Shown here piece by piece: positions 15,533 to 60,940 of a DNA stretch of 64,000 bases. Source of the stretch: an uncultured bacterium (lineage in GTDB: Bacteria > Patescibacteriota > Kazan-3B-28); assembly GCA_963695435.1 (NCBI GenBank), contig OY968788.1, positions 207,424 to 271,423 of the forward strand, read 5' to 3'. Position 1 is the first letter of the stretch. Each line of letters begins with the position of its first letter. The notes beneath the pieces are model-generated. The model saw only the letters and a list, made by a program, of their open reading frames with translations, did not search any database and was not told the origin of the DNA. The position numbers were made by a program, and so were the translations under genes.

Positions 15533-15948
15533 ATTTTGTATTGCTGACTGCCGTCAGCTAGGACCGAGCGCCAAATCGCGCTCGACCGATTCCCGCTTTG
15601 GCAAGGCATAAGCGGGACAAATCGCCGGCCTGCGGCTTCAGGTCTATTCAATGGCAAAATTGCCTTTCCACTAATGGTCGAAACTCGTCGCTTGCCAGCT
15701 CCTCAAACATCTCCCCGTGGCGGCAATTTTGCTCATTTCAGTACGACCTTACGCCGAAAGGCCGAGAGAAAAACAAAGGGCAGGCTCCAATGGCGGATAG
15801 AGGAGGGGGGAAATCTTGACTGGGAGCGGGTTTTCTGCTACCTTGGGGGTGTAGACGATTGTGCCTACCCAACCCTGAGGAGGCGGTTCACCCGCAAGCT
15901 CCGGAAACCGGAGAGCCTCGCAGATAGTTGGTTTGAAAAGGAGACTTC
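15533..15948 (+). repeat. Mosaic intergenic repeat element, locus L3 (modules M7-M3-M4-M6), leader of DGR1 target
   Basis: gaccgagcgccaaatcgcgctcgaccgatt + hairpin, ctaatggtcgaaactcg, aatggcggatagaggagggggg, cttgactgggagcgggttttctg. Confidence 0.7.
15816..15844 (+). promoter_or_regulatory. Promoter TTGACT-N17-TACCTT with GAGCGGGTTTT spacer (copy 3 of 4), about 105 nt upstream of the DGR1 target
   Basis: cttgactgggagcgggttttctgctacctt, almost identical to 58219-58247. Confidence 0.5.
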
Positions 15949-16843
15949 AATGGATAAGAAGTCAATTACTGCGGCTCAAATCAAGCAAATTGTGGGCTTT
16001 GTTCGCGATGTTGTCTCAACGCTTGGTTTGGGATTCTCTCAAGTGCAGGCGTTCATCAGTGATGCCAATCAGGTGGCTAAGTTCAAGGAGGGAATCAAAA
16101 ACCTTCTGCAGGAAATGATTGCTTCCAATCCGTTTGCTAAGGAGCGGGTCAAGCAGGCTTGGTTCTATCCAAAGAACTGGAAGTCCAAGAGCATAAGTGA
16201 GCAACTGGTCAAGCTCACCGACCTTTTCCAGAGTATCGACTTATCGCAGGTCGAAGCTTTGATGGATAAGGTGATTGTGCAGAAGCTCGCTGATGGCGTC
16301 GTCATCCTCCCCAAGCTCTCGTTCTTGGCTAAACTGTGGAGTATACCTGATCCCTATGGGGAAGGTTATGGTTTTGTCTGCGAGAAGCTATTCGGGCGCA
16401 TTGCCGTTAGCCGTGCTTTCTACAACTACCGAGCTGGGCAAATGGATGCGAAGCATATTCGTATCCATCAAGAAGTTCGCAACTTGCTGGAAAAGTTGGA
16501 AGCGGAGACTCCGGGTGATGTTCTCGTCTTGCCCTTCGACTTCGGGGGGTTATATGCGGGATGGAGCCCGCGAGCTGCTCGGTGGGAAGCACTGAACAAT
16601 AGTCAGCTTCCGCTGATTACGGCTCAAGTCGCTTGCCTTTTGCTGACTATGCCGGATCGACTTACCACTTGGGAGCAACTCTTTATTGACTGCTCTGGCG
16701 ATGAATGGGACTGGCTCGCTGTCGGCTGCTGGGCGGATTGCCCGTGCTTCGACTTCCGCAGCGGCGAGCTTTTGTTCGACGACGGGGGCGCTGGCTACGC
16801 CGGTGGCCGCGATGGGTCGGCGGTGGCTTTTCTCGGAGTGTAG
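15949..16843 (+). CDS. DGR1 variable (target) protein; C-terminal 43 codons are the VR
   Basis: RBS aaaggagact then ATG; C-terminus ..AVGCWADCPCFDFRSGELLFDDGGAGYAGGRDGSAVAFLGV is encoded by VR1; the ORF track upstream extension (15674) lies in the repeat/promoter region. Confidence 0.8.
16711..16839 (+). repeat. DGR1 variable repeat (VR1)
   Basis: 129 nt aligned to TR1 with 23 differences, 22 at TR adenines; 3' 39 nt identical (IMH-like GC-rich end). Confidence 0.9.
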
Positions 16844-17154: not shown

Positions 17155-17283
17155 CTGGAACGCTGACGGCAACTGGGCGAATTGCCCGTACTTCAACTTC
17201 AACAACGGCGAGCTTAAGTTCGACAACAGGGACGCTGACTACGCCAATGACAACTATGGGTCGGCGGTGGCTTTTCTCGGAGT
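17155..17283 (+). repeat. DGR1 template repeat (TR1)
   Basis: A-rich AAC-codon-rich copy of VR1; differs from VR1 essentially only where TR has A. Confidence 0.9.
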
Positions 17284-17285
17284 TG

Positions 17286-17600
17286 CTAATTTTCTAAACT
17301 GCGTATCCATCCGCCTAGCATACGGCCAATCTCTTGCAGAATCGTTTCGAGTGCGAGATATCGTTTTTGATCAAGAGAGTTGATGTCGAATGATAGGCGG
17401 ATTAGCAGTTTCAAAATATCCAGTTCGGCATTACTGGCAGTTAGATAAGTTCGTCTTGCACTTTTTTCTGTTCTGGTGGCTATAGTAACGGAATATAGCA
17501 AGTCGAGTGTCTTGGTTTGAATGATTTGACCGAGAGAATACTTCTCGGACTTGGGGAACTTTTGTACAGTGTCATGAAGAAGTCGGTAAAATTCATACAA
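17286..17600 (-). CDS. avd: DGR accessory variability determinant (Avd), four-helix-bundle protein
   Basis: 104 aa; C-terminus ..LQEIGRMLGGWIRSLEN resembles Bordetella phage bAvd ..EVGRILGSWIARV; member of the 23S rRNA-IVS four-helix-bundle family; abuts TR1. Confidence 0.8.
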   Translation of the reverse strand: MYEFYRLLHDTVQKFPKSEKYSLGQIIQTKTLDLLYSVTIATRTEKSARRTYLTASNAELDILKLLIRLSFDINSLDQKRYLALETILQEIGRMLGGWIRSLEN

Positions 17601-17634
17601 TTTCAGAACAATCGGGATTTCTCCAAATCCGTCC

Positions 17635-17645
17635 GGGGGGGGGGG
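17635..17645 (+). repeat. G11 homopolymer inside the RT1 5' region
   Basis: gtccGGGGGGGGGGGttagt; separates an upstream ATG (17574, different frame) from the RT frame. Confidence 0.9.
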
Positions 17646-17710
17646 TTAGTGGGAAAGTTATTTTCCATAACGGCGTTTTCTCCGAAATAATTTCATTAGA
17701 GAATTTATTT

Positions 17711-18685
17711 TTGGCTTGGGCTGAATTTCGCAAAGGCAAACGAAATAAACCGGATGTCCAAGCGTTCGAGCTTCATCTTGAAGATAACATATTCGCTCTT
17801 CGCGAGGATTTGGTGAGTGGCAATTATCGGCACGGTGACTATCATCAATTTCGTATTTCTGACCCCAAACCTCGAGTGATTAGTAAGGCATCTGTTCGGG
17901 ATAGATTATTACATCGTGCTATTCATCGGGTTTTATATCCGATTTTTGATAAGACTTTTATCTTCGATAGTTATTCTTGTCGAGATAACAAAGGTACTCA
18001 TCGGGCATTTTGGCGTTTGGCACAAATGACTCGCAAAATCTCTGAAAATTACACTCGACCTTGTTATGCTTTGAAATGCGACATTCGAAAATTCTTCGAC
18101 AGCATTGATCATCAAATATTATTCGGTCTGTTGGAAGACCGCATAGCGGACGAAAAGTTGCTGAAGTTGCTTCGAGATATTATCGGGAGTTTTGAACATT
18201 CTCCAGGCAAGGGAATGCCTTTGGGTAATCTGACCTCTCAACTTTTCGCCAATATTTATATGGATCCGCTAGATAAGTTTGTAAAACACCAGCTCAAAGC
18301 CAAATATTATTTGCGTTATGCGGATGATTTTATTTTCTTGTCAGATAATCCAGACGAGCTAATGGGTTATTTAGTCGAGGCGAATCATTTTTTGAAAACT
18401 AAACTGAAACTCAATATTCACCCAAACAAAATTTATCTTAGAAAACTGAAATGGGGAATTGATTATGTCGGCTATGTGGTTTTGCCACATTACAATCTGC
18501 CGAGGAGAAGAACGGTCGAAAGAATCAAGAAAAAACTGAAGAGCAGTTTGGCAATGGGTGATTTTGAGTCGGTTGCTGGGGCTATGCCGTCATATCTTGG
18601 CTACTTGGGTCATGCTAATGCTTATAAACTTCAGAAAAGTTTGTTGCGTAAAATAAATGAGGGGAATAATGTTGCCAAATATTGA
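17711..18685 (+). CDS. DGR1 reverse transcriptase (frame is open from 17525; annotated TTG start truncates the conserved N-terminus)
   Basis: RT motifs: ASVRDRLLHRAI, FIFDSYSCRDNKGTHRA, ALKCDIRKFFDSIDH, LGNLTSQLFANIYM (DGR-type GxxxSQ rather than intron QGxxxSP), YADDFIFL. Confidence 0.85.
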   Translation: MAWAEFRKGKRNKPDVQAFELHLEDNIFALREDLVSGNYRHGDYHQFRISDPKPRVISKASVRDRLLHRAIHRVLYPIFDKTFIFDSYSCRDNKGTHRAFWRLAQMTRKISENYTRPCYALKCDIRKFFDSIDHQILFGLLEDRIADEKLLKLLRDIIGSFEHSPGKGMPLGNLTSQLFANIYMDPLDKFVKHQLKAKYYLRYADDFIFLSDNPDELMGYLVEANHFLKTKLKLNIHPNKIYLRKLKWGIDYVGYVVLPHYNLPRRRTVERIKKKLKSSLAMGDFESVAGAMPSYLGYLGHANAYKLQKSLLRKINEGNNVAKY

Positions 18686-57928: not shown

Positions 57929-58353
57929 GTTTTTTATTGTTTTCTTTTTCTTTTTTGTCATTCCTGCGGAGGCAGGGATCCATTTTCTTTTTGTTTATTT
58001 TTTCAAGGGTCTGCGCGACCCTTGTACCGCGGTTACTTTCCGCTTGAGGAAAGTAACCAAAGTCGCTCCCCACTCACAAATTCATTTTCCAAAAAAGCAA
58101 AATATAACCTTTCTGGACTATACGCTATACTCGCTACGCTCAAACAACGCTATCCATACCGGTCAATTTTGCTATTGGAAATATGAATTTGCTCAATGGG
58201 TATCGGGGAGGGGAAAGCTTGACTGGGAGCGGGTTTTCTGGTATCCTGCGGGTGTAAGGTGGACCCTGTGATTTTTAGGGAAATACCCCACCAGTACCTT
58301 GAAGACTAGCCGACACAAGTTAGCCTATAAGGTATTAGTAAAAGGAGACTGGG
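57929..58353 (+). repeat. Mosaic intergenic repeat element, locus L5 (M1-M2-M5-M6), leader of DGR2 target
   Basis: ttttcttttttGTCATtcctgcggaggcaggga, gggtctgcgcgaccc, cggttactttc..gaaagtaacc, ctttctggactatacgctatactc, cttgactgggagcgggttttctg. Confidence 0.75.
58219..58247 (+). promoter_or_regulatory. Promoter TTGACT-N17-TATCCT with GAGCGGGTTTT spacer (copy 4 of 4), about 107 nt upstream of DGR2 target
   Basis: cttgactgggagcgggttttctggtatcct. Confidence 0.5.
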
Positions 58354-58995
58354 ATGACTATCCTAGCCGCCATTGATGTTGTGATGAAGTTGCTCGGGGC
58401 TCTCATCACTGCTAAGCCCAACGAGAGTGAAGACTACGCTCGGGTCAATGAACTGCTAAAGCAGCTCAAGACTCTGGGCGAAGAAGCTCTTGGCAGACTG
58501 CTTCAGCGGATGAACTACATCCGTGAGTTGCTGTCCCGCAGTACACTTCCCACCCTAGACGACTTGAAGACATTTCTAAACCAAGTCATTCAGGTCATCG
58601 ACTGCGATGCCCAGCCATTCATTCCTGATGGCTGGAAGGTGCAAGAGCACCAAAAGGGTGGCAAGCTCGAATGGAATCCCGAGAAGATTCAGCTTTATCT
58701 TTCGGATGGGCAAAAGGACGGCAAGTATATTGAGGGCAATAAGCTTCGCAAGGAGCTGAAGGGCAAGAAGGTTCTAAATGCCTGCGTTCTCGATTGGCTT
58801 TTGGCTCATCCCGAGTTTATCCCAGAAGAATGGAAGAGTAAGTATATTTTTTTCTGGGGTACCATCTATCGCATCTCGGGCGGCGACCTGTATGTCCGTT
58901 GCCTCTGCTGGCTCGGTGACAGGTGGCACTGGCGCTACGCTTGGCTCGACGACGATTGGTACGACAGCCGCCCTGCTGCTGTTCTCGCAAGTTAG
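58354..58995 (+). CDS. DGR2 variable (target) protein; C-terminal about 40 codons are the VR
   Basis: RBS aaaaggagact; C-terminus ..RISGGDLYVRCLCWLGDRWHWRYAWLDDDWYDSRPAAVLAS encoded by VR2. Confidence 0.8.
   Translation: MTILAAIDVVMKLLGALITAKPNESEDYARVNELLKQLKTLGEEALGRLLQRMNYIRELLSRSTLPTLDDLKTFLNQVIQVIDCDAQPFIPDGWKVQEHQKGGKLEWNPEKIQLYLSDGQKDGKYIEGNKLRKELKGKKVLNACVLDWLLAHPEFIPEEWKSKYIFFWGTIYRISGGDLYVRCLCWLGDRWHWRYAWLDDDWYDSRPAAVLAS
58869..58988 (+). repeat. DGR2 variable repeat (VR2)
   Basis: 118-nt gapless alignment to TR2 with 18 differences, all at TR adenines (AAC codons in TR); 3' 28 nt identical. Confidence 0.9.
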
Positions 58996-59342
58996 TCTTT
59001 GGGACTTGGGATCTTGGGTCTTCGGATCCTTTACCCTTGGTCCTTTGGCCGCGCTCTCCGGAGTGCGGCCTCTTTTTATGTTTCAAATTTGGTAAACTAT
59101 CCGTGGAACTAGGCGAATATGCCAGAGATTACGGTTTCTGGCTGCCGAACCCAGTATCCATACAATGAGAGTATTCCTGATTAAGATTTGGAATAGAGGG
59201 TTGTATGTAGAAACTTCAAAAAATGAAGATACTTGGTGTGAGATGTTCTGACATTATAGATGTCGAATAAAATACAATCCTAAGACTTCTGCTCCAAAAG
59301 CGGAATCAAGGGGTGGTGCTTACGGATAATATCTCGCACGAA

Positions 59343-59462
59343 TCGCAACTCGGACGGCAACCTGTATGTCCGTTACCTCAACTGGAACGGTGACAGGTGG
59401 AACTGGAACTACAATTGGCTCGACAACGATTGGAACGACAACAACCCTGCTGCTGTTCTCGC
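59343..59462 (+). repeat. DGR2 template repeat (TR2)
   Basis: AAC-rich copy of VR2 between the target gene and avd2. Confidence 0.9.
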
Positions 59463-59470
59463 TACTATCC

Positions 59471-59902
59471 TCATTTCTCTCCCGACTTTTCGGGAGAGTT
59501 TTGTCTATTGAGTTGTCCATTCCAACCACCGAGCATTTTGCCTATTTCATCTAGTTGAACCGAAACGGAACCGTATTTCTTGTTATCTAGAGATTTGGTT
59601 TCCCATAAGACCATTAGAAGAATTTTGAGGGTATCAGTTTTGCGGATTGCTAGTCTGACATAAGGAGACTTTTCTGTTCGGCTAAGGAAGCTGGCTTGAG
59701 CAACAGCTTCAATAATTTCTACAAATAAATTGTCTACTCTCTGTCCGATGGAGTAGCGATGGAGTTTAGGTAGGATTTGGTAATAGCTATACCATAGGAG
59801 GTACGCCTGTTTTAGGCGTTGAAGTAACGGAAGCAACTCTCTCTCTCTCGGTGTGGTATCTTTGTTCGTCATATGAAAATAGCTAAAGGTTATTATGAAC
59901 AT
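59471..59902 (-). CDS. avd: DGR accessory variability determinant (Avd), second copy
   Basis: Homolog of Avd1 (..YSIGQ..LDEIGKMLGGWNGQL); 5' end overlaps the RT2 5' end by about 30 nt (or abuts it if the second Met at 59872 is used). Confidence 0.75.
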   Translation of the reverse strand: MFIITFSYFHMTNKDTTPRERELLPLLQRLKQAYLLWYSYYQILPKLHRYSIGQRVDNLFVEIIEAVAQASFLSRTEKSPYVRLAIRKTDTLKILLMVLWETKSLDNKKYGSVSVQLDEIGKMLGGWNGQLNRQNSPEKSGEK

Positions 59903-60940
59903 ATTATCTCACTCGACAATCTTCTTGAGGCGTGGCGGGAATTTGTGGTGGGAAAACGGAATCGAAAGGATGTTCAGGAGTTCGAGAGAGATTTGATGTC
60001 TAATATTATCCAATTGCATCGAGATTTGGAATTAGGCAATTATCAACATTCGGATTATCAGCCATTCAAGATTACCGATCCTAAGCCACGCAACATTCAT
60101 AAAGCGAGCGTACGAGATAGACTACTTCATAGGGCGATTTATAGAATCTTATATCCGATTTTTGATAAGACTTTTATTTTTGATAGTTATTCTTGTCGAG
60201 ATAATAAAGGTACTCATCGGGCATTTTGGCGTTTGGCACAAATGACTCGCAAAATCTCTGAAAACTACACTCGACCTTGCTATGCTTTGAAGTGCGACAT
60301 CCGAAAATTCTTCGACAGCATTGATCACGAGGTGCTAATGGGGTTATTGCGAGCTCGTATTGTCGATGAGCGATTATTGAAATTGCTGGAGAGTATTATT
60401 GATAGTTTTTGTTTGGGTCTGGATTCCCGCCTGCGCGGGAATGACAAAGAAGGACGCGGGAATGACGGAGAAGGCAAGGGAATGCCTTTGGGTAATCTGA
60501 CCTCCCAACTTTTCGCCAATATTTATATGGACCCGCTAGATAAGTTTGTGAAACACCAGCTCAAAGCCAAATATTATTTGCGTTATGCGGATGATTTTAT
60601 TTTCTTGTCGGATAATCCAGACGAGCTAATGGGTTATTTGGTTGAGGCAAATCGTTTTTTGAAAACTAAACTGAAACTCAATATTCACCCAAACAAAATT
60701 TATCTTAGAAAACTGAAATGGGGGATTGATTATGTCGGCTATGTGGTTTTGCCACATTACAATCTGCCGAGGAGAAGAACGGTCGAGAGAATCAAGAAAA
60801 AACTGAAGAGCAATTTGGCGATGGGCGATTTTGAGTCGGTGGCTAGAGCTATGCCGTCGTATCTTGGTTATTTAGGACACGCTAATACTTATAAGCTCCA
60901 GAAAAGTTTGTTGGGCAAAATCGCAGATGCTAAAGCGTGA
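59873..60940 (+). CDS. DGR2 reverse transcriptase
   Basis: Same RT motifs as RT1 including LGNLTSQLFANIYM and YADDFIFL; ATG start; 21-aa insertion between motifs 3 and 4. Confidence 0.9.
   Translation: MKIAKGYYEHIISLDNLLEAWREFVVGKRNRKDVQEFERDLMSNIIQLHRDLELGNYQHSDYQPFKITDPKPRNIHKASVRDRLLHRAIYRILYPIFDKTFIFDSYSCRDNKGTHRAFWRLAQMTRKISENYTRPCYALKCDIRKFFDSIDHEVLMGLLRARIVDERLLKLLESIIDSFCLGLDSRLRGNDKEGRGNDGEGKGMPLGNLTSQLFANIYMDPLDKFVKHQLKAKYYLRYADDFIFLSDNPDELMGYLVEANRFLKTKLKLNIHPNKIYLRKLKWGIDYVGYVVLPHYNLPRRRTVERIKKKLKSNLAMGDFESVARAMPSYLGYLGHANTYKLQKSLLGKIADAKA

What the first reader, a model, noticed from the sequence alone, without database searches (positions are those of the whole stretch)
17525..17720. 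G11 homopolymer breaks the DGR1 RT reading frame: candidate phase-variation switch
The RT1 frame is open from 17525 and encodes ..GKVIFHNGVFSEIISLENLFLAWAEF, homologous to the RT2 N-terminus MKIAKGYYEHIISLDNLLEAWREF. However, it contains no ATG before the TTG at 17711, and that TTG would delete the conserved N-terminal block. An ATG at 17574 (MKKSVKFIQFQ..) lies in a different frame and runs into a stop just after the G11 tract at 17635-17645. One extra G, or two fewer, would fuse this ATG to the RT frame. The fused protein's 5' end would overlap the antisense avd1 start by 27 nt, the same arrangement as in DGR2, where an ATG-initiated RT2 overlaps avd2 by about 30 nt. So either RT1 expression is gated by slipped-strand variation of a poly-G tract (encoding poly-Gly), or the assembly has a homopolymer length error.
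Basis: partly seen in the sequence, partly recalled or inferred. Interest (0 to 1): 0.6.

Follow-up and report, generated by a model that had tools for sequence, protein, structure and literature searches.

The report
Slippery repeat switch gating a DGR
An 11-G run sits where two back-to-back genes of a targeted-hypermutation device (a DGR: reverse transcriptase plus its helper Avd) overlap, and at this length it knocks both out of frame; related bacteria carry a length-variable repeat at the same spot, so it looks like a reversible on/off switch for the mutator.

Summary
G11 (17635-17645) is the only G/C run longer than 7 in the window. It separates ATG 17574 from the RT1 body, and G12 or G9 restores a 370/369-aa RT.

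The real avd1 start is ATG 17668, the complement of an RT His codon, and Avd1 is in frame only at G9/G12. G11 therefore switches off both genes.

The feature is not a one-off:
- 24 of 49 related Patescibacteria (CPR) DGR loci carry a simple repeat at this junction: G6-G11, (GT)n or (GA)n. DGR2 in the window carries (CT)6.5. Enrichment is about 460-fold.
- Repeat-bearing loci have the avd ATG in frame in only 5 of 23 cases. Repeat-free loci have it in frame in 17 of 17.
- In four natural populations, contigs identical over 3.4-6 kb differ only by tract length (G9/10/11, G9/10, G10/11, 19 vs 27 nt of GA). In each, one length puts Avd and RT in frame together.

Best reading: a slipped-strand contingency switch on the DGR machinery. 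I found no published description. Still open: read-level heterogeneity in this organism, and the true RT start.

The parts
17635..17645 (.). G11/C11 homopolymer, the hypermutable tract. It reads as Gly codons in RT1 and Pro codons in avd1.
   Evidence: It is unique in the window. Homologous tracts of G6-G11 sit at the same position in related loci.
17574..18685 (+). RT1, the DGR reverse transcriptase. The ON-phase ORF runs from ATG 17574. At G11 it splits into a leader frame (17574-17690) and a body frame (open 17525-18685).
   Evidence: Pfam RVT_1 at 6e-27. Match to 8ub7 bRT at 5e-52. G9/G12 give 369/370 aa. Homologues P0004, P0009, P0007 and P0008 have matching N-terminal extensions.
17286..17668 (-). 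avd1, the DGR accessory protein. The ON-phase ORF runs from ATG 17668 (MENNFPTNPPP(P)DGFGEIPIVLKLYEFY...). At G11 the leader frame ends after 21 aa.
   Evidence: Pfam bAvd at 3.5e-18. G9/G12 give 126/127 aa. The ATG is the complement of the conserved RT His codon CAT 17666-17668. Repeat-free relatives start avd at this ATG in 17 of 17 loci.
17155..17283 (+). Template repeat TR1.
   Evidence: 129-nt direct repeat with VR1 at 82% identity. The aligned strings show the mismatches inside the repeat falling at TR adenines; the per-base tally was made on a 151-nt span with non-repeat flanks.
16711..16839 (+). Variable repeat VR1, at the 3' end of the target gene.
15674..16843 (+). DGR1 target gene (389 aa) with a C-terminal VR.
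   Evidence: ORF. No Pfam hit.
59837..59849 (.). (CT)6.5 repeat at the avd2/RT2 junction of DGR2. It is read as RERE inside avd2.
   Evidence: It is the only dinucleotide repeat of 5 or more units in the window. It is in frame in avd2 (MTNKDTTPRERELLPLLQ).
59471..59874 (-). avd2. It probably starts at ATG 59874, which shares a CATATG palindrome with the RT2 ATG. It is currently in frame (ON).
59873..60940 (+). RT2 (355 aa). Its ATG lies downstream of the repeat, so its frame does not depend on repeat length.

Best explanation
The G11 tract is a simple-sequence contingency switch built into the divergently overlapping 5' ends of avd1 and RT1.

How the two genes are coupled (shown from the sequence):
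- The two ORFs are codon-aligned antisense on both sides of the tract. The RT1 ATG 17574 is the complement of an Avd His codon. The avd1 ATG 17668 is the complement of RT His codon 17666-17668.
- Any tract length divisible by 3 (G9, G12) therefore puts both proteins in frame, with Gly3-4 in RT and Pro3-4 in Avd.
- Any other length truncates both to peptides of 20-38 aa. The assembled G11 is OFF for both.

What follows (inferred):
- Replication slippage at the tract changes its length at high frequency.
- Cells therefore flip heritably but reversibly between a state with Avd and RT, in which mutagenic retrohoming of TR1 into VR1 is possible, and a state without them, in which VR1 is frozen.
- Avd is needed for DGR cDNA synthesis in the Bordetella phage system (established knowledge), so gating avd alone would be enough.

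Both the switching rate and the effect on diversification are inferred, not measured.
For: 1. Frame arithmetic, checked by rebuilding the tract at G8-G13.
2. Position-specific enrichment. 24 of 49 related loci plus both window DGRs carry a repeat in the junction. Long repeats number 22 in 4,655 junction bases against 3 in 293,578 other bases. In the window, the only long G run and the only dinucleotide repeat of 5 or more units sit at the two avd/RT junctions.
3. The repeat type varies (G, GT, GA/CT) while the position is kept. That argues for mutability rather than a sequence motif.
4. The tract is intragenic for avd. At least 15 repeat-bearing loci have no canonical avd start downstream of the tract, and all have an ATG upstream of it.
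5. Reading phase is scrambled only where a repeat exists. The avd ATG is in frame in 17 of 17 repeat-free loci and in 5 of 23 repeat-bearing loci (Fisher 3e-7). That fits random phase (p=0.28 against 1/3) and does not fit ordinary coding.
6. Natural polymorphism in four populations: G9/G10/G11, G9/G10, G10/G11, and 19 vs 27 nt of GA. Flanks are identical. In the closest ON/OFF contig pairs there are 0-1 substitutions in 3.4-6 kb and the tract is the only indel (the G11 Berkelbacteria contig differs by 6). Lengths reproduce across independent assemblies.
7. In each of these populations, one length restores both Avd (100-127 aa where the contig reaches that far) and RT (354-368 aa).
8. The phase needed by avd and by the upstream RT ATG is the same in 17 of 17 loci.
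9. DGR1 is otherwise intact. The TR/VR mismatches visible in the aligned strings fall at TR adenines, and the RT aligns end to end with 8ub7.
Against: - There is no read-level or population data for the window's own organism. The only metagenome match to its flanks was a duplicate of L006. G11 here could be a consensus error.
- The RT1 start is not proven. The solved bRT begins only 4 residues before the His that aligns with RT1 His32. An ATT at 17660, preceded by GGGAAAG, could serve as a tract-independent near-cognate start. Some relatives have TTG at that codon.
- TTG 17600 could give a slightly truncated Avd.
- About 78% of loci are OFF. That is compatible with random phase, but also with some unrecognised decoding, such as RNA polymerase slippage on runs of 9-11.
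- The 17 of 17 phase concordance follows from the antisense codon alignment, and the loci are related, so these are not 17 independent tests.
- No expression or activity data exist.
Confidence: 0.68

Rival explanations
1. Homopolymer length error in this assembly. The true tract is G12 (or G9), both genes are intact, and the tract simply encodes Gly/Pro.
For: Long G runs are error-prone in sequencing. No reads could be examined. The window's own population was not found elsewhere.
Against: 18 of 23 independent repeat-bearing loci are also out of frame. Occasional consensus errors cannot produce that (p about 1e-19 against 95% intact). Tract lengths reproduce across different assemblers and samples; for example, G11 appears in five Kazan contigs from the NCBI, ENA and Logan collections. 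Even if G11 is an error here, the tract would still be a hypermutable site.
Confidence: 0.12
2. Expression by RNA-level slippage or recoding. RNA polymerase stutters on the G/C run of 9-11 (or ribosomes shift), so a fraction of transcripts is in frame whatever the DNA length. That would give constitutive low-level Avd and RT rather than an on/off switch.
For: Tract lengths cluster at 9-11, and reading phase across genomes looks unconstrained.
Against: The offset between observed and needed length has no fixed direction: about 11 loci are at +1 and about 10 at +2. Dinucleotide repeats occupy the same site in other loci and are poor slippage substrates for RNA polymerase. DNA-level length polymorphism is directly seen. 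This rival is not exclusive of DNA phase variation.
Confidence: 0.12
3. Non-coding spacer. Both genes start downstream of the tract (RT1 at ATT 17660, Avd1 at TTG 17600). The repeat lies in a shared divergent promoter or 5'-UTR region and tunes transcription or translation through spacing or non-B DNA.
For: In 8 relatives and in DGR2 the RT ATG does lie after the repeat. The bRT N-terminus is collinear with a start near 17654-17660. A purine-rich stretch precedes ATT 17660.
Against: avd has no canonical start after the tract in at least 15 loci, while a conserved ATG lies before it. Repeat-free relatives use that ATG in 17 of 17 cases. Repeat-free group members L001, L008 and L009 have in-frame upstream RT starts. 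The promoter scan is not clearly above chance: 4 sites against 1.7+/-1.3.
Confidence: 0.06
4. DGR1 is a decaying pseudogene, and the frameshift is an ordinary inactivating mutation.
For: Both genes are disrupted. The genome has a second DGR that is in frame.
Against: The only lesion is at the tract. Both ORFs are otherwise open over their full length. The TR/VR mismatches visible in the aligned strings fall at TR adenines. The same 'lesion' recurs at the same site in many lineages and is polymorphic.
Confidence: 0.02

Closest known systems
Intragenic poly-G/C contingency loci of Neisseria, Haemophilus, Campylobacter and Helicobacter (for example hmbR/hpuAB; PMC3786947, PMC8355987)
   Same: A homopolymer of about 8-11 lies in the 5' coding region. 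Length changes of +/-1 switch translation on and off. Many alleles in sequenced genomes are OFF. The repeat is strongly enriched at the locus.
   Different: The host is an uncultured Patescibacteria-type genome. The gated product is the machinery of a targeted hypermutation system, not a surface antigen or restriction-modification gene. One tract lies in two ORFs on opposite strands.
Haemophilus influenzae hifA/hifB fimbrial switch: (TA)n in overlapping divergent promoters (from my own knowledge)
   Same: A single repeat between two divergent genes controls both together.
   Different: That switch is transcriptional and works through -10/-35 spacing. Here the repeat is inside both reading frames, and the coupling comes from codon-aligned antisense overlap.
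Bordetella phage BPP-1 DGR (avd-TR-brt; structure 8ub7; PMC6182149)
   Same: It has an RT (5e-52 to 8ub7), an Avd, and a TR/VR pair with adenine-specific differences.
   Different: In BPP-1, avd, TR and brt are co-oriented and carry no repeat. Here avd is inverted, overlaps the RT 5' end and carries the repeat. In the ON reading, RT1 has a 27-aa N-terminal extension relative to bRT.
Phase-variable regulators and modifiers ('phasevarions'; switchable mutator alleles with repeats in mutL/mutS) (from my own knowledge)
   Same: A stochastic repeat switch controls a gene whose product changes many downstream phenotypes or mutation supply.
   Different: The output here is site-directed diversification of one target protein by retrohoming. 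It is not methylation or global mutation rate.

Membership tests
Diversity-generating retroelement (DGR) | Reverse transcriptase of the DGR type | tested here: met
   Pfam RVT_1 at 6e-27. Best solved relative is the Bordetella phage DGR RT 8ub7, at 5e-52 over residues 32-353, including the LGNLTSQLFANxY block.
Diversity-generating retroelement (DGR) | TR/VR repeat pair whose differences fall at TR adenines, with the VR at the 3' end of a target gene | tested here: met
   VR 16711-16839 and TR 17155-17283 share 82% identity. The aligned strings show the mismatches inside the repeat at TR adenines. The per-base tally there covers a 151-nt span that includes non-repeat flanks (27 of 42 at A); no core-only tally was computed.
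Diversity-generating retroelement (DGR) | Avd-type accessory gene next to the RT | tested here: met
   Pfam bAvd at 3.5e-18 for 17286-17600(-).
Diversity-generating retroelement (DGR) | Ongoing adenine mutagenesis (activity) | not testable with these tools
   This needs read-level VR diversity or an experiment.
SSR-mediated phase-variable (contingency) locus | A repeat long enough to slip (about 7 or more for G/C) and over-represented against the genome background | tested here: met
   G11 is unique in 64 kb, with 0.02 expected. Enrichment at the junction across 49 loci is about 460-fold.
SSR-mediated phase-variable (contingency) locus | A change in repeat length changes the reading frame or expression of a gene | tested here: met
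   G9/G12 give full-length Avd1 and RT1. G8, G10, G11 and G13 truncate both.
SSR-mediated phase-variable (contingency) locus | Length polymorphism among otherwise identical genomes | tested here: met
   Met for four homologous populations. Not testable for the window's own population.
SSR-mediated phase-variable (contingency) locus | High-frequency reversible switching within a clone, with a phenotype | not testable with these tools
   This needs cultures, or deep error-corrected reads and time series.
Programmed ribosomal frameshift or transcriptional realignment site | A fixed frame relation (always -1 or always +1) between upstream and downstream ORFs across homologues | tested here: not met
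   The observed-minus-needed length mod 3 is 0 in about 5 loci, 1 in about 11 and 2 in about 10.

The most novel reading that the evidence does not exclude
A large clade of Patescibacteria (CPR) DGRs, and by convergence some more distant DGR RTs, is governed by hypermutable simple repeats placed in the avd/RT 5' overlap or in an RT loop. A first-order stochastic switch (slippage) would then decide which cells run a second-order diversity generator (retrohoming). In the window's subclade, a single tract in a codon-aligned antisense overlap gates Avd and RT simultaneously. This would be an undescribed regulatory layer of DGRs and an unusual two-gene, two-strand translational switch.
Probability: 0.55. 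Interest if true: 0.9.

Novelty: new variant of a known kind. Interest (0 to 1): 0.8.

Why it matters
How DGR activity is controlled, and how cells avoid the cost of continuously re-randomising an adapted binding protein, is largely unknown.

A slippage switch on Avd and RT would give a simple answer. Most cells keep a frozen variable protein, and a small, constantly renewed minority diversifies.

The idea can be tested directly on existing metagenomes. In DGR1 the tract lies only about 800-900 nt from VR1, so long accurate reads can link tract phase to VR haplotype.

It also bears on annotation. Many CPR DGR RT and avd genes are currently called truncated, given wrong starts, or missed because of this tract.

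Finally, it is an example of one repeat gating two overlapping genes on opposite strands.

Tried and rejected
- Exact-protein look-ups for the window's RT1 and RT2 products found no record. Cluster look-ups gave no accession for the source genome.
- The single metagenome scan with the window's left flank plus G6 returned only L072, which is 100% identical to L006 (G10) and is not the window's organism.
- A test for avoidance of avd codons that would create antisense stops (TTA, CTA, TCA) in the overlap was poorly targeted and uninformative: 6.4% against 6.8%.
- A PDB sequence search with Avd1 gave only spurious designed-ankyrin hits.
- The sigma-70-type promoter scan around the junction gave 4 weak matches against 1.7+/-1.3 expected. 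I did not use it.
- Poly-G artefacts from two-colour Illumina chemistry are rejected. The tract is internal, flanked by conserved coding sequence, and present in older assemblies and several pipelines.
- An alternative genetic code is rejected as irrelevant. The frame break does not depend on how stop codons are read.
- Literature searches and term searches inside four DGR papers found no mention of homopolymers, frameshifts or phase variation in DGR RT or avd genes. Paul et al. 2017 could not be read.

Full report
**1. What is in the window**

- G11 lies at 17635-17645. It is the only G or C run longer than 7 in 64 kb. G runs count 11 at length 6, then one at length 11. About 0.02 runs of this length are expected from the window's own run-length decay.
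- Downstream of the tract is a DGR-type reverse transcriptase: Pfam RVT_1 at 6e-27 and 5e-52 to the Bordetella phage DGR RT structure 8ub7.
- Its frame is open from 17525 but has no ATG, GTG or TTG until TTG 17711. That start would remove residues aligning to bRT residues 5 to about 19.
- ATG 17574 is in another frame and stops at 17688-17690.
- Rebuilding the tract shows that G9 or G12 gives a 369 or 370-aa RT. G8, G10, G11 and G13 do not.

**2. The element is a genuine DGR**

- VR 16711-16839, at the end of the 389-aa ORF 15674-16843, and TR 17155-17283 form a 129-nt repeat. The aligned strings show the mismatches inside the repeat at TR adenines; the tally was made on a wider 151-nt span.
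- avd1 lies on the minus strand: Pfam bAvd at 3.5e-18.
- A second DGR is present: target 58354-58995, TR 59342-59462, avd2 on the minus strand, RT2 59873-60940.

**3. The tract also lies inside avd1**

- In 17 of 17 relatives that have a divergent avd and no repeat, avd starts at an ATG that is the complement of a conserved RT His codon (the H of 'FHxG'). A leader of 15-25 aa precedes the (D/E)IPIxxKxYEFY helix.
- In the window that ATG is at 17668, the complement of CAT 17666-17668. RT1 His32 aligns with bRT His5.
- From this ATG, Avd1 reads MENNFPTNPPP(P)DGFGEIPIVLKLYEFY... and is full length (126 or 127 aa) only at G9 or G12. At G11 it ends after 21 aa.
The match starts at profile position 9.
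- RT1 ATG 17574 is itself the complement of an Avd His codon. The two ORFs are therefore codon-aligned antisense on both sides of the tract, and any length that restores one restores the other.
- G11 is a double OFF.

**4. The same site carries a simple repeat in many relatives**

- I examined 49 related loci from species-representative genomes, mostly Patescibacteria: Kazan, Berkelbacteria, Saccharimonadia and others.
- 24 of them have a repeat 25-60 nt upstream of the RT 'IISLENL' motif. G9 is commonest, the range is G6-G11, and five loci have (GT)n or (GA)n.
- DGR2 in the window has (CT)6.5 at 59837-59849, read as RERE inside avd2. It is the only dinucleotide repeat of 5 or more units in the window.
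- Long repeats number 22 in 4,655 junction bases against 3 in 293,578 other bases.
- The repeat type changes while the position stays, which argues for selection on mutability rather than on a motif.

**5. Reading phase is scrambled wherever the repeat exists**

- avd has no canonical start downstream of the repeat in at least 15 loci and always has an ATG upstream of it. The repeat is therefore intragenic for avd.
- Even so, the ATG is in frame in only 5 of 23 repeat-bearing loci (L012, L021, L046, L034 and DGR2), against 17 of 17 repeat-free loci (Fisher 3e-7). Five of 23 is compatible with random phase (p=0.28) and incompatible with ordinary coding plus rare errors.
- The offsets have no fixed direction, which argues against a programmed +1 or -1 recoding site.
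- In 17 of 17 loci where RT lacks an ATG after the repeat, the upstream RT ATG needs the same tract phase as avd.
- In eight other loci and in DGR2 the RT ATG lies after the repeat, so only avd is gated.
- Three loci without a divergent avd (L018, L028, L033) have the G tract inside the RT 5' coding region. All three are out of frame.

**6. Direct polymorphism in nature**

Clusters of RT proteins at 90% identity or more contain members that differ only at the N-terminus, in the way tract changes of +/-1 predict. One example is MNKRNFNWGELRGGGLNRRV against (V/M)GGGLNRRV against MGRIAWGGGLNRRV. I fetched the DNA for four such populations.

| Population | Contigs and tract length | Comparison |
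|---|---|---|
| Berkelbacteria | G9 (L056, L057), G10 (L058, L059), G11 (L060) | L056 vs L058: 3,662 nt, 1 substitution, one 1-nt gap |
| P0095 cluster | G9 (L061, L062), G10 (L063-L065) | 4,106 nt, 1 substitution, one gap |
| Kazan | G10 (L066), G11 (L067-L071; contigs from the NCBI, ENA and Logan collections) | 6,014 nt, 0 substitutions, one gap |
| GA-type locus | 19 nt (L073), 27 nt (L074) | 3,423 nt, 1 substitution, one 8-nt gap |

In each population one length (G9, G9, G10 and 27 nt respectively) gives both a full-length RT (354-368 aa) and an in-frame Avd. The Avd is 125, 127 and 100 aa in the three populations where the contig extends far enough; in L056 it is cut at 55 aa by the contig end. 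The other lengths truncate both. OFF alleles are at least as frequent as ON alleles.

**7. Interpretation**

The best-supported mechanism is slipped-strand phase variation of the DGR machinery. Avd is always gated. RT is also gated in the window's subclade.

- Shown: the frames, the conservation and enrichment of the repeat, the scrambled phase, and the natural length polymorphism in homologous loci.
- Inferred: high-frequency reversible switching, that OFF alleles lack DGR activity, and that RT1 starts at ATG 17574.

The RT start is the weakest link.
- bRT begins only 4 residues before the aligned His.
- ATT 17660, or TTG at the same codon in some relatives, could act as a tract-independent start.
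- Against that, repeat-free members of the subclade (L001, L008, L009) have in-frame upstream starts. Homologues called with the extension match the window's frame-0 leader, although that similarity is confounded by avd coding on the other strand.

**8. Limits**

- The window's own population was not found in any collection. G11 may be a consensus error here, and heterogeneity in this organism is untested.
- RNA polymerase slippage on runs of 9-11 could blur the ON/OFF distinction.

**9. Novelty**

- Poly-G contingency loci and DGRs are each well known.
- I found no description of repeats, homopolymers, frameshifts or phase variation in DGR RT or avd genes. This covers full-text searches and term searches inside two large DGR surveys and two recent DGR papers.
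- The library is incomplete, and Paul et al. 2017 was not available.
- I rate this a new variant of a known kind, with high interest because it offers a testable answer to how DGR activity is restrained.

Noticed in passing
L052:3500-3600 (Peribacteria DGR RT, about 507 nt after the IISL-equivalent anchor): An A9G8 run breaks this more distant DGR RT frame just before the G(I/M)P(I/L)GNLTSQ motif. The frame reads ..SFGVKKKGGGYL*, and the +1 frame continues IPIGNLTSQIFSNIYLNELDRF. This is a second, independent site where a homopolymer splits a DGR RT.
   Followed up: partly
L037 (about anchor+363) and L045 (about anchor+515): In-frame dinucleotide repeats sit inside RT loops of distant DGR RTs: (GA)11 read as AERERERES, and (AG)6 read as LERERRGRD in a Pacearchaeota RT. 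Together with L052, these are the only long repeats outside the avd/RT junction in about 294 kb of related loci.
   Followed up: partly
window 60420-60474 and 57950-57982: RT2 carries an in-frame insertion of a small palindromic repeat (two tandem CGCGGGAATGAC... units, translated RLRGNDKEGRGNDGEG). It lies in the loop before GKGMPLGN. A copy that is 85% complementary lies at 57950-57982. RT1 lacks the insertion.
   Followed up: partly
window 18205-18654 vs 60472-60921; 17894-18111 vs 60110-60327: RT1 and RT2 are 94% identical at nucleotide level over 450 nt and 91% over 218 nt. Their 5' ends, avd genes and TRs differ. This suggests recent recombination or gene conversion between the two DGRs.
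   Followed up: partly
L056, L057, L059 (contig ends); L058 vs L060 near L058:1675-1694: Several metagenome contigs end about 60-100 nt upstream of the RT gene. L058 also lacks about 326 nt that L060 has between the target-gene end and TR. These probably reflect assembly breaks or collapse at the VR/TR repeat. Such breaks complicate automated DGR annotation.
   Followed up: no
window 17611-17626: A short hairpin, GGATTT-CTCC-AAATCC, lies 8 nt upstream of the G tract. On the avd strand its loop is GGAG. It is identical in L003 and L006 and weaker in L002. It could merely reflect the GFGEIP codons, or it could influence slippage or internal initiation.
   Followed up: no
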